Positions 33,566 to 34,855 of a stretch of DNA of 50,879 nt are shown in pieces. The translations under genes and the position numbers were made by a program. Location: assembly GCA_964527875.1 (NCBI GenBank), contig CAZGOR010000002.1, positions 1 to 50,879 on the forward strand, in the 5' to 3' direction. Below the pieces are notes generated by a model, which was not told the DNA's origin, did not search any database, and was given only the letters and a program-made list of their open reading frames with translations. Within the stretch, counting starts at the first letter, position 1. Every line of letters begins with the position of its first letter. The DNA is from an uncultured Bacteroides sp. (GTDB lineage Bacteria; Bacteroidota; Bacteroidia; Bacteroidales; SM23-62).

Positions 33566-33934
33566 TTAGAAATGAAAGATCATCAATATTAAAGATCCAA
33601 AAACAAATAAACCAGATATTATATAACTAATTAAAATAGTTCTTCTACTTACATTTGCGTATTTCTTTTGTATTTTGACTAAATAATTAAACCTATATAG
33701 AATTATTATTTGAAATAAAAATATTAATAGACCTAATAGAAAAAAATGAAACTGTGAATAATTAAAATCAACATTTACTATGATTATTCTAATTAATTTA
33801 TCTATATCAAATAATAATAGAATTGTTATCCAAAGGATAGTACTTAATTGCGGGATAATATCAAACTTTTCCTTTTTTGTTTTAAAATGGCTATAAATAC
33901 CATAATATATATTATCATAAAGATTTGGCATCAT
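33566..33934 (-). CDS. small 3-TM membrane protein, putative immunity protein for the upstream Rhs-tip toxin
   Basis: 122 aa. The ATG is 3 nt after the toxin stop. There are three hydrophobic spans (LSTILWITILLLF, FHFFLLGLLIFLFQIIILY, ILISYIISGLFVFGSLILMIF). The DNA is conspicuously more A+T-rich than its neighbours. Confidence 0.6.
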   Translation of the reverse strand: MMPNLYDNIYYGIYSHFKTKKEKFDIIPQLSTILWITILLLFDIDKLIRIIIVNVDFNYSQFHFFLLGLLIFLFQIIILYRFNYLVKIQKKYANVSRRTILISYIISGLFVFGSLILMIFHF

Positions 33935-33937
33935 ATA

Positions 33938-34855
33938 CTATTTTTCAAATCTCTTATAATATTTGTCATTAGCCCCTTCAATATCCCTGATAGAATAATA
34001 TGTTCCAAAAACAAAGTACCATCTTATTTTGTTTGTTAAGTATGTATTCAATAATTGACCGTAAAATCTTGCTTCATTTGCTCTCGTTGGATTTTCTTGC
34101 CAATCCCAGTATGTATCAAGTAATACAACCGTTGAGAGTATTGTACTGCCTGCTTTTGCACCAATAAGTATAATAGGTAAATCTGCCGAGGCAGCAGCAG
34201 CTAATACTGAAAAACCCACTGATGCACCTATCAAACCTTCTATATCACTTTTACTCAAATTATACCAACGGTTAACGTCATTTTTCTTCTTCGGATCCCC
34301 ATCAAACATCATCCCGTATCCTGAACCATACTCACCAAGGGATGATGAATTTGCCAACAGATCATAAAATCCTGTCCAATAATCTTCTACAAATGCCTCT
34401 ATACCGGCAATACCTCCTGACAGGGCAGATTCCAGGATTCCGCCAAGGTAATAGGAACTTCCGGTATAGATAGTAATATCTTTTGCGATATCACTCCATC
34501 TGTAATATTTACCATCAACACCTTGTACATACAAATCCCCAAAGCCTGATCCGGGATCTGGAAAATTCCCGGGGTAATATCTGCCAAAGTTATTCCTCCC
34601 AAATCCAAACGGAGGTTCCAGATCATCTCCCTGGAAGGGCCAATCTGAAGCGGGATTACCACCCCCACCTGATTCCCTGGGATTTTTTGCTCTATACAGA
34701 CCGTAGGGGTCAAAAAAGTTAACAGGATTGTTTGCCACATAGTTATACGGGCTCAGGTCGGAGTCTGTTTCGGAGAGGGGGTCCTGCACGTGCCAACGTC
34801 CAAGAGCTGGGTCATAGAACCGGGCGCCGTAATCATACCAATTCAAAAAAATCAA
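33938..34855 (-). CDS. orphan Rhs repeat-associated core tip fused to an uncharacterised C-terminal (toxin-like) domain
   Basis: It opens (TTG, with an in-frame TAA just upstream) at [22 protein letters not shown]...[19 protein letters not shown], the conserved end of the Rhs/YD core including DPxGL. About 250 aa with no motif I recognise follow. No YD-repeat shell lies upstream. Confidence 0.75.
   Translation of the reverse strand: [305 protein letters not shown]

What the first reader, a model, noticed from the sequence alone, without database searches (positions are those of the whole stretch)
33566..34855. Orphan Rhs-core tip with an unrecognised, apparently membrane-active C-terminal domain and a coupled AT-rich 3-TM immunity candidate
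Seen: the 305-codon ORF begins (TTG, with an in-frame TAA immediately upstream) exactly at the conserved end of an Rhs/YD core: [41 protein letters not shown]. Nothing resembling the YD-repeat shell lies upstream; a complete C1 peptidase gene ends 24 nt away. The ~250 aa after DPYGL contain a Gly/Pro/Phe-rich linker and two long small-residue/hydrophobic stretches ([62 protein letters not shown]). I can name no nuclease, deaminase or ADP-ribosyltransferase motif in them. A 122-codon ORF with three clear TM spans starts 3 nt after the stop and is visibly far more A+T-rich than the flanks. Established: Rhs polymorphic toxins end in a DPxGL-containing core followed by a variable toxin and an adjacent immunity gene. 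Promoter-less orphan tip-plus-immunity cassettes also exist and are exchanged by recombination through the core-encoding sequence. Inference: this is an orphan toxin/immunity cassette whose toxin may be a glycine-zipper-like membrane-inserting (ionophore/pore) domain. An integral-membrane immunity protein would fit that, and the toxin may belong to an undescribed family.
Basis: partly seen in the sequence, partly recalled or inferred. Interest (0 to 1): 0.75.

Follow-up and report, generated by a model that had tools for sequence, protein, structure and literature searches.

The report
Orphan Rhs toxin tip with immunity
This is a stranded fragment of a bacterial "Rhs" contact weapon, namely the last piece of the shell, a linker, a small helical toxin domain and its membrane-embedded antidote gene; the toxin family is rare and unnamed, but this type of cassette is already well known.

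Summary
The sequence features are real, all on the minus strand. ORF 33938..34855 (305 aa) starts inside the Rhs-associated core: TIGR03696 positions 29-76 of 76, E 1e-14. A 122-aa, 20% GC ORF with three hydrophobic spans follows 3 nt later. No YD shell lies anywhere in the 50.9-kb window.

- **Two modules.** The roughly 250 aa after DPYGL are a linker (res 54-~190) and a ~115-aa tip (res ~190-305).
- **Linker.** It is shared with only two other orphans, one of which carries a different tip.
- **Tip.** It has about ten relatives among roughly 15 billion proteins. One sits at the C-terminus of a full-length 1,998-aa Rhs; several sit in orphan arrays.
- **Partner gene.** In all five loci with readable downstream DNA, the tip is followed by a 121-124-aa homologue of the 122-aa protein. 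The different tip has a different small membrane ORF.
- **Known families.** Neither protein matches Pfam, NCBIfam or PDB. The tip models as a five-helix bundle (pLDDT 71) with no Foldseek match.

So the orphan toxin/immunity cassette is well supported. A membrane-depolarising mechanism, as in Tse5/Tsi5 or CDI ionophores, is a reasonable inference but untested. This is a new member of a known kind, of moderate interest.

The parts
34856..34879 (-). 24-nt spacer between the peptidase stop codon and the TTG of the orphan. It reads TCA TAA TAA then five sense codons, in the same frame as both genes. This is the left edge of the cassette.
   Evidence: Read directly from the sequence. DNA similarity to other orphans starts only at about 34846, at the codons for (W)YDYG.
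34697..34855 (-). Remnant of the Rhs-associated core (codons 1-53: ..[31 protein letters not shown]). It ends at the DPxGL motif after which Rhs tips begin.
   Evidence: TIGR03696 positions 29-76 of 76, E 1e-14. GC 0.50. Other orphans (L001, L002, L010, L013) start at the same point. 7 of the 9 differences from sister contigs lie in codons 8-65, Fisher p 1e-6.
34286..34696 (-). Linker module (codons 54-~190), rich in Gly, Tyr, Ser, Asp, Pro and Phe. It is shared with P0002 and P0003 only. Structure and role are unknown.
   Evidence: P0003 matches query residues 1-139 only (66% identity) and then diverges. No Pfam hit. AlphaFold pLDDT about 30.
33938..34285 (-). Toxin tip (codons ~191-305 plus the stop). 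It is a predicted five-helix domain with an Ala/Gly/Ser-rich helical hairpin (res ~205-247).
   Evidence: Family of about ten proteins, including the C-terminus of the 1,998-aa Rhs P0007. Model pLDDT 70.9, pTM 0.61. No PDB or BFVD fold match. No Pfam, NCBIfam or PDB sequence match. GC 0.34.
33566..33934 (-). Candidate immunity gene: 122 aa, three strongly hydrophobic spans (about 24-46, 62-81 and 100-121), Lys/Arg-rich N-terminus and second loop, GC 0.20.
   Evidence: Hydrophobicity. Homologues of 121-124 aa lie directly downstream of the tip in L001, L004-L007, L008 and L010. No Pfam or PDB match.
33466..33491 (-). Terminator-like hairpin followed by a T-run, about 75 nt downstream of the 122-aa ORF. 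It is the likely 3' end of the transcription unit.
   Evidence: Consensus scan only: 11-pair stem with 4 G-C pairs. This is weak evidence.

Best explanation
This is an orphan Rhs C-terminal cassette. It has three protein modules on one ORF plus a cognate immunity gene: (i) the last ~50 residues of the Rhs core up to DPYGL, (ii) a ~135-aa linker, (iii) a ~115-aa all-helical toxin tip, and then a translationally coupled gene for a three-span inner-membrane protein.

**Shown**
- The core remnant, and the absence of a shell in the window.
- The modular boundaries.
- The tip occurs on a full-length Rhs and in orphan arrays.
- The tip is strictly paired with the 3-TM protein family.
- Neither protein resembles any described family.

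**Inferred**
- When carried by a full-length Rhs, the tip is released behind the DPxGL autocleavage site and delivered to a neighbouring cell.
- There, its Ala/Gly/Ser-rich helical hairpin (res ~205-247) and the following helices insert into the cytoplasmic membrane and dissipate the membrane potential, acting as a pore or ionophore.
- The 3-TM protein neutralises it by helix-helix contact inside the membrane.
- In this genome the fragment cannot be exported on its own. Its likely roles are to keep the immunity gene, giving protection against relatives that fire this toxin, and to hold a spare tip. That tip could be moved onto a full-length rhs by recombination through the core-coding ~150 nt.

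My confidence is about 0.9 that it is an orphan Rhs toxin/immunity cassette, and about 0.55 that the toxin acts by membrane insertion and depolarisation.
For: **Cassette identity**
- TIGR03696 positions 29-76 of 76.
- No other Rhs sequence in the window.
- The neighbourhood is housekeeping genes: RNR, GltX, PGK, MetRS.

**Modularity**
- P0003 shares residues 54-192 (66% identity), then carries an unrelated tip and a different 86-aa downstream membrane ORF.
- P0005-P0010 share only the tip.

**The tip is a real Rhs toxin domain**
- It forms the C-terminal 124 residues of P0007 (E 1e-11). P0007 is 1,998 aa with SpvB, FG-GAP, TcdB_toxin_midN and a YD shell.
- It also occurs in orphan arrays downstream of an Rhs (L004-L007) and in L010.

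**Pairing with the membrane protein**
- In 5 of 5 independent loci with downstream DNA, the next gene is a 121-124-aa homologue, anywhere from an 8-nt overlap to a 14-nt gap ([31% identity, E 1e-15], 36, 37, 41, 42).
- Both partners are polymorphic: tips 26-43% identical, partner proteins 24-41%.

**Membrane reading**
- The partner is almost entirely membrane spans.
- The tip's residues that stay invariant across all eight members include no His, Cys, Lys, Arg, Ser or Glu: G26, P43, T58, D67, P72, A78, N86, D107, G110, D113, Y116.
- Five predicted helices, with helices 1-2 forming a small-residue-rich hairpin around an invariant Pro.

**Precedents**
- Tse5-CT is an Rhs pore-former with a two-TM immunity protein, Tsi5 (PMC9637101, PMC10684867).
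- CDI ionophores have an entry domain plus a five-helix bundle, and small, hydrophobic, ~30%-identical immunity proteins (PMC11630599).

**Recombination handle**
- 7 of 9 SNPs against sister contigs fall in the core-coding 193 nt, and none in codons 66-305.
- The falling GC gradient is typical of rhs tips.
Against: - No functional data exist.
- The tip's hydrophobic helices are only marginally membrane-competent on the Wimley-White scale (-1 to -5 kcal/mol). Helices 3-4 of the window's own copy are less hydrophobic than in most relatives.
- The model is of moderate confidence and rests on 8 sequences. A soluble helical bundle would look the same.
- Four invariant acidic or polar residues (D67, N86, D107, D113) could equally mark an active or binding site.
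- The glycine zipper is incomplete.
- No full-length rhs with this core was found in the genome or metagenome collections. Unlike classic orphans, this one is not next to a main rhs gene.
- No promoter-like element was identified for the cassette.
Confidence: 0.6

Rival explanations
1. The cassette is the same, but the tip is not a pore or ionophore. It would be a small helical protein that binds or enzymatically attacks a membrane-embedded target, such as a lipid carrier, a transporter or a respiratory component. The 3-TM partner would protect by shielding that target or sequestering the toxin at the membrane.
For: - Invariant Asp, Asn, Thr and Tyr residues (D67, N86, D107, D113, T58, Y116) could form a binding or catalytic site.
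- The tip helices are only marginally hydrophobic.
- The model is a compact five-helix bundle of the kind soluble proteins also form.
- CDI ionophores themselves need specific membrane-protein receptors (PMC11630599).
Against: - No similarity to any enzyme family or fold.
- No conserved His, Cys, Lys, Arg, Ser or Glu.
- The partner protein has no soluble domain to speak of, so contact must take place within the bilayer.
Confidence: 0.22
2. The toxin fragment is a functionless relic. Only the 122-aa gene matters, kept as an orphan immunity gene that protects against neighbours firing this toxin. The truncated toxin ORF simply has not yet decayed.
For: - There is no shell, no secretion domain and no ATG start, and no parent rhs was found.
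- The locus is isolated among housekeeping genes and intron debris.
- Orphan immunity genes without an effector are documented (PMC10539506).
Against: - The 305-codon frame is intact in the three sister contigs that cover parts of the ORF, with no differences in codons 66-305 where L003 covers them.
- The 49%-identical orphan in L001 is also intact.
- The clustered substitutions in the core-coding part suggest ongoing exchange with other rhs copies.
- This rival concerns present-day use and is compatible with the best explanation of what the parts are.
Confidence: 0.3
3. The orphan is expressed inside the producer and works with the downstream gene as a toxin-antitoxin-like module that modulates the cell's own growth, as reported for Salmonella rhs orphans.
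For: - Orphan Rhs toxins can be expressed from internal starts and act as type II TA-like modules (PMC7043789).
- The orphan lies 24 nt behind a peptidase gene on the same strand with no terminator-like site between them, so read-through transcription is possible.
- Some related orphans have ATG starts exactly at the junction.
- Tse5-CT is toxic from the cytoplasmic side (PMC9637101).
Against: - There is only a TTG start, five codons after a run of stop codons, and no recognisable promoter.
- A stable integral-membrane 'antitoxin' does not fit the labile-antitoxin logic.
- No expression data exist.
Confidence: 0.08
4. It is not a toxin/immunity pair at all: two chance or unrelated ORFs next to a fossil Rhs core.
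For: There are no annotated domains beyond the core, and very few homologues.
Against: - Both ORFs have intact, alignable homologues at 24-43% identity in unrelated contigs.
- They are always adjacent and in the same order, including behind a full-length Rhs.
Confidence: 0.02

Closest known systems
Orphan rhs-CT/rhsI cassettes of Enterobacteria (Poole et al. 2011, PMC3150448; Koskiniemi et al. 2014, PMC3967940)
   Same: - A fragment that keeps only the 3' part of the core-coding sequence, followed by a variable toxin tip and an immunity gene.
- The GC content falls across the tip.
- The core-coding part shows signs of exchange.
   Different: - It is not placed downstream of a main rhs gene. 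It sits alone between a C1 peptidase gene and a LuxE-like gene in a housekeeping region.
- The host looks like a Bacteroidota member, judging by core matches and a PorX-like gene.
- An extra linker module lies between the core and the toxin.
Tse5 (RhsP1) / Tsi5 of Pseudomonas aeruginosa (PMC9637101, PMC10684867)
   Same: - An Rhs-delivered C-terminal toxin with no enzymatic signature.
- An integral-membrane immunity protein.
- Tse5-CT forms ion-selective pores and depolarises cells, which is the mechanism proposed here.
   Different: - No detectable sequence relationship: the tip profile against all PDB chain sequences, which should include the deposited Tse5 protein (its structure is reported in PMC10684867), gave 0 hits at E <= 10.
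- Tsi5 has two predicted TM regions, against three here.
- Tse5 is a T6SS/VgrG-PAAR effector. The full-length carrier of this tip (P0007) has a signal peptide plus SpvB, FG-GAP and TcdB_mid domains.
CDI ionophore toxins, CdiA-CT(EC93) family, with CdiI (Halvorsen et al. 2024, PMC11630599)
   Same: - A bipartite C-terminal region: a variable N-terminal module plus a ~five-helix C-terminal domain.
- A Gly-rich helix.
- Small, very hydrophobic and highly polymorphic immunity proteins (~30% identity within a group), with modular reshuffling of the upstream module.
   Different: - The carrier is Rhs, not CdiA.
- The immunity protein is 121-124 aa with three spans, not a 72-100-aa two-helix hairpin.
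- Only one GxxxG is conserved, not GxxxGxxxG.
- No CdiA-sized protein appeared among the phmmer hits in 1.84 billion representatives.
- A direct profile comparison with that family could not be run.
Pore-forming colicins (A, E1, Ia, N) and their membrane immunity proteins
   Same: The concept is the same: an Ala-rich hydrophobic helical hairpin packed in a helical bundle that is soluble before insertion, plus a 3-4-TM immunity protein acting within the membrane (own knowledge).
   Different: - The colicin domain has ten helices and about 200 aa, against five helices and about 115 aa here.
- No Pfam Colicin hit and no Foldseek match to colicin structures.

Membership tests
Rhs / YD-repeat polymorphic toxin | Rhs-associated core (TIGR03696) ending in DPxGL/W, directly before the variable tip | tested here: met
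   Residues 5-53 match profile positions 29-76 of 76: 54.8 bits against a cut-off of 32.5, E 1e-14. The DPYGL motif is at residues 49-53. Only the 3' two-thirds of the core is present.
Rhs / YD-repeat polymorphic toxin | YD-repeat shell encoded upstream in the same gene | tested here: not met
   Stop codons and a complete peptidase gene lie directly upstream. tblastn of the 1,998-aa Rhs P0007 against the window hits only the core remnant and the tip. It is therefore a fragment (orphan), not a full Rhs protein.
Rhs / YD-repeat polymorphic toxin | The same tip is found at the C-terminus of a bona fide full-length Rhs | tested here: met
   P0007 residues 1875-1998 match the tip (E 1e-11; tblastn E 1.7e-16). 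P0007 carries SpvB, FG-GAP, TcdB_toxin_midN and TEN_YD-shell domains.
Rhs / YD-repeat polymorphic toxin | A cognate immunity gene lies immediately downstream and co-varies with the tip | tested here: met
   A homologue of 121-124 aa follows the tip in 5 of 5 loci. A different tip on the same linker has a different downstream ORF. The protective function was not tested.
Orphan rhs-CT/immunity cassette | Located downstream of a full-length rhs gene of the same locus | tested here: not met
   There is no rhs within the 50.9-kb window. Relatives in L004-L007 and L010 do sit in such arrays.
Orphan rhs-CT/immunity cassette | Core-coding homology to a main rhs gene of the same genome, allowing recombination | not testable with these tools
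   The genome is not available. Scans of GTDB representative genomes and of metagenome contigs found only the same locus (L011, L012) and another orphan (L013). The only evidence is indirect: SNPs cluster in the core-coding part.
Tse5-CT pore-forming toxin family | Sequence similarity to Tse5-CT | tested here: not met
   The tip profile (A1) against all PDB chain sequences gave 0 hits at E <= 10. These should include the deposited Tse5 protein, whose structure is reported in PMC10684867.
Tse5-CT pore-forming toxin family | Forms ion-conducting pores and depolarises cells; neutralised by a membrane immunity protein | not testable with these tools
   This needs expression, membrane-potential dyes and bilayer recordings.
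CDI ionophore toxins (CdiA-CT EC93 family) | C-terminal five-helix bundle preceded by a variable 'entry' domain | tested here: inconclusive
   Five helices are predicted (H18-38, H43-70, H74-92, H96-108, H113-117; pLDDT 70.9), and there is a modular upstream linker. The resemblance is one of architecture only. No superposition was possible.
CDI ionophore toxins (CdiA-CT EC93 family) | Conserved GxxxGxxxG glycine zipper | tested here: not met
   Only G26 is invariant. G30 is present in 5 of the 6 aligned tips of A1, and the third position is Leu, Val or Thr.
CDI ionophore toxins (CdiA-CT EC93 family) | CdiI-type immunity: 72-100 aa, two-helix hairpin | tested here: not met
   The partner is 121-124 aa with three strongly hydrophobic spans in all five homologues.
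CDI ionophore toxins (CdiA-CT EC93 family) | Detectable sequence homology to CdiA-CT ionophore domains | tested here: inconclusive
   phmmer over 1.84 billion representatives returned six proteins, none of them CdiA-like. A profile-profile test against the family was not possible because its sequences are not at hand.
Colicin pore-forming domain | Pfam Colicin domain / ten-helix fold | tested here: not met
   No Pfam hit. The best Foldseek PDB hits are generic helical bundles at E about 1.

The most novel reading that the evidence does not exclude
The ~115-aa tip and its 3-TM partner would define a previously undescribed, very rare family of membrane-depolarising Rhs toxins and in-membrane immunity proteins in Bacteroidota-like bacteria. 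In addition, the separately exchangeable ~135-aa linker would work like a CdiA-CT 'entry' domain, choosing the target-cell membrane receptor. In the three orphans that carry it, this linker sits on two different tips, each followed by a small membrane ORF. Rhs tips would then have a two-level modular design: entry module plus membrane warhead.
Probability: 0.3. Interest if true: 0.55.

Novelty: new member of a known kind. Interest (0 to 1): 0.35.

Why it matters
If the inference holds, this adds an unnamed family of small helical membrane toxins, and a matching three-span immunity family, to the catalogue of interbacterial weapons. It comes from a lineage (Bacteroidota-type Rhs proteins with SpvB/FG-GAP/TcdB-like N-terminal parts) where delivery and toxin activities are poorly studied.

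The bipartite tip, with a linker shared between different warheads, parallels the entry-domain/ionophore design of CDI toxins and could be tested as a general rule for Rhs toxins.

The system type itself is not new: orphan Rhs cassettes and Rhs pore-formers with membrane immunity are both known. The gain is therefore incremental. The extreme rarity of the family (about ten sequences in roughly 15 billion) limits its immediate reach.

Tried and rejected
- **Family searches, no result.**
  - Pfam and NCBIfam on the 305-aa and 122-aa proteins and on all family members gave only the Rhs core.
  - PDB sequence-profile searches for the tip and the immunity protein gave nothing meaningful.
  - Foldseek of the tip model against PDB and BFVD gave only generic helical bundles, best E 0.6-1.
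- **Linker structure.** An AlphaFold model of residues 54-305 left the linker unmodelled (pLDDT about 30), so no fold search was attempted on it.
- **Search for a full-length parent or more members.**
  - Two scans of GTDB representative genomes, with the protein and with the tip-subfamily alignment, gave no confirmed hits.
  - A metagenome scan for any DNA encoding [17 protein letters not shown] found only the same locus twice plus one unrelated orphan.
  - Two IMG/VR scans found nothing.
  - tblastn against plasmids matched only the core, mostly in Bacteroidota.
- **Empty-site or synteny test.** Exact look-up of the LuxE-like neighbour, with two alternative starts, found no record.
- **Promoters.** The sigma-70-type scan was at background level. 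One Bacteroidota-type TAnnTTTG lies inside the toxin ORF and is not informative.
- **L010 multi-TM ORF.** I tested whether this 127-aa ORF belongs to the same immunity family. It does not (hhalign probability 5.8%).
- **CDI ionophore comparison.** I tried to obtain these sequences from the paper's supplements for a profile comparison. Only accession lists are held.
- **Rejected reading.** 'Decayed junk' was rejected for the tip because of intact homologues, conserved columns and the conserved gene pairing.
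Full report
**1. What is in the sequence**

All features lie on the minus strand.

- A 305-codon ORF (33938..34855, TTG start) and a 122-codon ORF (33566..33934, ATG) are separated by 3 nt and share a reading frame.
- A complete 376-aa C1-family peptidase gene (34880..36010; PF03051 E 7e-16, PF00112 E 4e-11) ends 24 nt upstream.
- The peptidase and the orphan are in the same frame, separated by TAA-TCA-TAA-TAA and five sense codons. The in-frame stop is therefore close to the TTG but not adjacent to it.
- Residues 5-53 of the ORF match the NCBIfam Rhs-associated core TIGR03696 at profile positions 29-76 of 76 (54.8 bits, cut-off 32.5, E 1e-14). 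The ORF begins in the middle of the core and ends that segment with DPYGL.
- The window contains no other Rhs sequence. tblastn with a 1,998-aa Rhs protein and with the core peptide finds only this ORF.
- The large ORFs of the window are housekeeping genes: ribonucleotide reductase, GltX, PGK, MetRS and a PSP1-domain protein.
- GC content falls stepwise: 0.50 (core), 0.45 (res 54-190), 0.34 (res 191-305), 0.20 (122-aa ORF), against 0.39 for the window.

**2. The C-terminal region is two modules**

Homologues are extremely rare.

- A search of 5.8 billion clustered proteins with residues 54-305 returned three proteins. An exhaustive phmmer search of 1.84 billion representatives returned six.
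- P0001 is the same locus from a sister assembly.
- P0002 (49% identity) covers the whole query.
- P0003 matches only query residues 1-139 (66% identity), then continues with an unrelated Gly/Phe/Ser-rich tip.
- P0005-P0010 match only the last ~115 residues.

So residues 54-~190 are a linker module and residues ~190-305 are the actual tip family. Only residues ~205-247 do.

**3. The tip is a genuine Rhs toxin domain**

- P0007 (1,998 aa, from NCBI assembly GCA_042584475.1) has a signal-peptide-like N-terminus, SpvB, FG-GAP, TcdB_toxin_midN and TEN_YD-shell domains, a core ending in DPSGW, and a ~150-residue linker of its own. Its last 124 residues are the tip.
- P0010 lies in an array downstream of an Rhs protein with an M23 peptidase tip. 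The order is Rhs-M23, immunity, orphan M23, immunity, orphan with this tip, then a 124-aa ORF.
- P0008 lies in an array of orphans that each begin at NWYAHGARYYDP.
- The orphans in L001, L002 and L013 begin at the same point of the core as the window's ORF. The orphans in L004 have lost the core altogether.

**4. The downstream gene is the cognate partner**

- In every locus where DNA downstream of the tip is available, the next gene is a 121-124-aa homologue of the 122-aa ORF. These loci are the window, L001, L004-L007, L008 and L010.
- Spacing ranges from an 8-nt overlap to a 14-nt gap. BLASTP between the window and L001 proteins gives 31% identity, E 1e-15. The five-sequence alignment is A2.
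- P0003, with the same linker but a different tip, is followed by an unrelated 86-aa ORF with two hydrophobic stretches.
- Tips are 26-43% identical and partner proteins 24-41%. The correlation is weak (Spearman 0.66 over 10 non-independent pairs).
- The partner genes are AT-rich in most loci, 0.17-0.31 GC.
- All five partners have three strongly hydrophobic spans (Wimley-White 19-mer sums of about -5 to -19 kcal/mol; -12 to -19 for the window's own copy) and little else.
- Lys/Arg enrichment in the N-terminal ~25 residues and in the loop between spans 2 and 3 fits an N-in/C-out topology. This is read from the alignment using the positive-inside rule, so it is an inference.

**5. What the tip looks like**

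- Neither protein matches Pfam, NCBIfam or any PDB chain sequence.
- With an 8-sequence alignment, AlphaFold2 gives a five-helix model: H18-38, H43-70, H74-92, H96-108 and H113-117, with mean pLDDT 70.9 and pTM 0.61.
- Foldseek finds only generic helical bundles (best E about 1 in PDB and 0.6 in BFVD).
- Helices 1 and 2 form an Ala/Gly/Ser-rich hairpin around an invariant Pro.
  - Helix 1 keeps one GxxxG (G26 invariant; G30 in 5 of 6 tips), so it is not a full glycine zipper.
  - Helix 2 keeps a Ser/Thr-rich face with an invariant Thr and a mid-helix polar residue in most members.
- Residues invariant across eight members are G, P, T, D, P, A, N, D, G, D, Y. None is His, Cys, Lys, Arg, Ser or Glu, which argues against the usual nuclease, deaminase, ADP-ribosyltransferase or protease chemistries (inference).
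- The tip's hydrophobic helices are only marginally membrane-competent, at -1 to -5 kcal/mol. Helical pore-forming toxins that must remain soluble before insertion are expected to behave this way, but a soluble bundle would too.
- The linker could not be modelled (pLDDT about 30).

**6. Most likely mechanism**

The cassette identity is shown (confidence about 0.9). The rest is inferred:

- On a full-length Rhs, the tip is released after the DPxGL autocleavage site and delivered to a neighbouring cell.
- It inserts its helical hairpin into the cytoplasmic membrane and collapses the membrane potential.
- The 3-TM protein blocks it by contacts within the bilayer (confidence about 0.55).

This is the reasoning that led to the characterisation of Tse5. 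That Rhs toxin had no predicted enzymatic function and a two-TM immunity protein, Tsi5, and it proved to form ion-selective pores and depolarise cells (PMC9637101, PMC10684867). CDI ionophore toxins show the closest architectural parallel: a variable entry domain, a five-helix ionophore domain, and small hydrophobic immunity proteins only ~30% identical within a group (PMC11630599).

Membership in either family is not supported. There is no sequence match to any PDB chain, a set that should include the deposited Tse5 protein. The immunity protein differs in size and topology. The zipper motif is incomplete. No CdiA proteins appeared among the phmmer hits.

The main rival is a non-pore toxin acting on a membrane-embedded target (confidence about 0.22).

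**7. What the orphan does where it sits**

It cannot be exported as it stands. It lacks a shell and an N-terminal domain, and it has only a TTG start behind stop codons. No promoter-like element stands out, and no terminator-like site separates it from the peptidase gene. A terminator-like hairpin follows the 122-aa gene at 33491..33466.

Comparison with two sister contigs of the same locus (99.5-99.6% identical) gives a hint about its dynamics:

- 7 of the 9 differences from L003 lie in codons 8-65 of the orphan. Five of them fall within 22 nt.
- There are no differences in codons 66-305 and two in the 1,131-nt peptidase gene. Fisher p = 1e-6.

This pattern looks like a gene-conversion patch. 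Alternatively, it could be assembly cross-talk from another rhs core in the same population. Either way, other core-bearing copies exist, which fits the recombination-reservoir model of orphan cassettes (PMC3150448, PMC3967940).

Retention mainly for the immunity gene (as for orphan immunity genes in PMC10539506), or internal toxin-antitoxin-like expression (PMC7043789), cannot be excluded.

Unlike classic orphans, this one is not next to a main rhs gene. No parent was found in GTDB representative genomes or in the metagenome contigs.

**8. Host**

- The core matches best to Rhs genes of Bacteroidota such as Persicobacter, Hymenobacter, Chryseobacterium and Bacteroides.
- The window encodes a receiver+PglZ protein of the PorX type (assignment from my own knowledge).
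- The P0007 locus carries Por_Secre_tail genes.

A Bacteroidota-like host is likely but was not tested directly.

**9. Verdict**

Three refinements apply: the C-terminal region is bipartite, the toxin is much smaller than assumed, and the glycine zipper is incomplete.

The system type is already known: an orphan Rhs cassette, and a membrane-acting Rhs toxin with a membrane immunity protein. What is new is an unnamed, very rare toxin/immunity family pair, plus a hint of two-level modularity. I rate it a new member of a known kind, with interest 0.35.

Noticed in passing
window 36100-37000 (RF01999 at 36491..36607, minus strand; ORF 36541..36954, minus strand): Group II intron debris lies just beyond the peptidase gene. 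There is a strong D1-D4-2 match (111.5 bits) and a truncated 137-aa reverse-transcriptase-like ORF (..GNISPLLSNIYLHEVLDEW..YADD..). The GC content is higher than in the surroundings.
   Followed up: partly
window 38600-39800 (weak RF02003 hit at 39472..39650, minus strand): A 1.2-kb stretch without a convincing ORF, GC 0.47-0.54 in a 0.39 GC window. It has a sub-threshold group II intron D1-D4-4 match (36 bits against a gathering score of 49, E 1e-5). It may be a second degenerate or ORF-less intron.
   Followed up: partly
window 34663-34833, compared with L003 and L012: Differences between near-identical assemblies cluster in the Rhs-core-coding part of the orphan: 7 of the 9 differences from L003 (and 7 of the 8 from L012), five of them within 22 nt. 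There are none in the remaining 240 codons. This suggests gene conversion from, or assembly mixing with, another rhs core.
   Followed up: yes
window 33566-33934; loci L003, L014, L015: Three independent metagenome assemblies break inside or right at the end of the 20% GC immunity gene, so the right-hand junction of the cassette is rarely assembled.
   Followed up: no
window 20663..22219 (minus strand): A 518-aa protein with a response-regulator receiver plus a PglZ domain. This is the domain pair of PorX-type regulators of type IX secretion and hints at a Bacteroidota host.
   Followed up: no
window 14645..18208 (plus strand) and 1292..2785 (plus strand): An 1,187-aa ORF and a 497-aa ORF have no Pfam match at E 1e-5.
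   Followed up: no
L002 585..1788 and 2827..3159: P0003 has the same linker as the window ORF but a different, Gly/Phe/Ser-rich tip. It is followed by an 86-aa ORF with two hydrophobic stretches. A second orphan starting at [11 protein letters not shown] lies 1.3 kb downstream. A ParE-type toxin gene sits between them, and another lies beside the orphan in L009.
   Followed up: partly
L010 224..925: The first pair of this orphan array is another small-residue-rich C-terminal tip followed by a 127-aa multi-span membrane ORF. That ORF is unrelated to the 122-aa family (hhalign probability 5.8%). It may be a second membrane-acting toxin type.
   Followed up: partly
L004 2503..4419 (also L005-L007): The orphans in this array (an M23-peptidase tip and the P0010 tip) have no Rhs-core remnant at all, unlike the window's orphan. 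Not all orphan tips keep a core recombination handle.
   Followed up: partly
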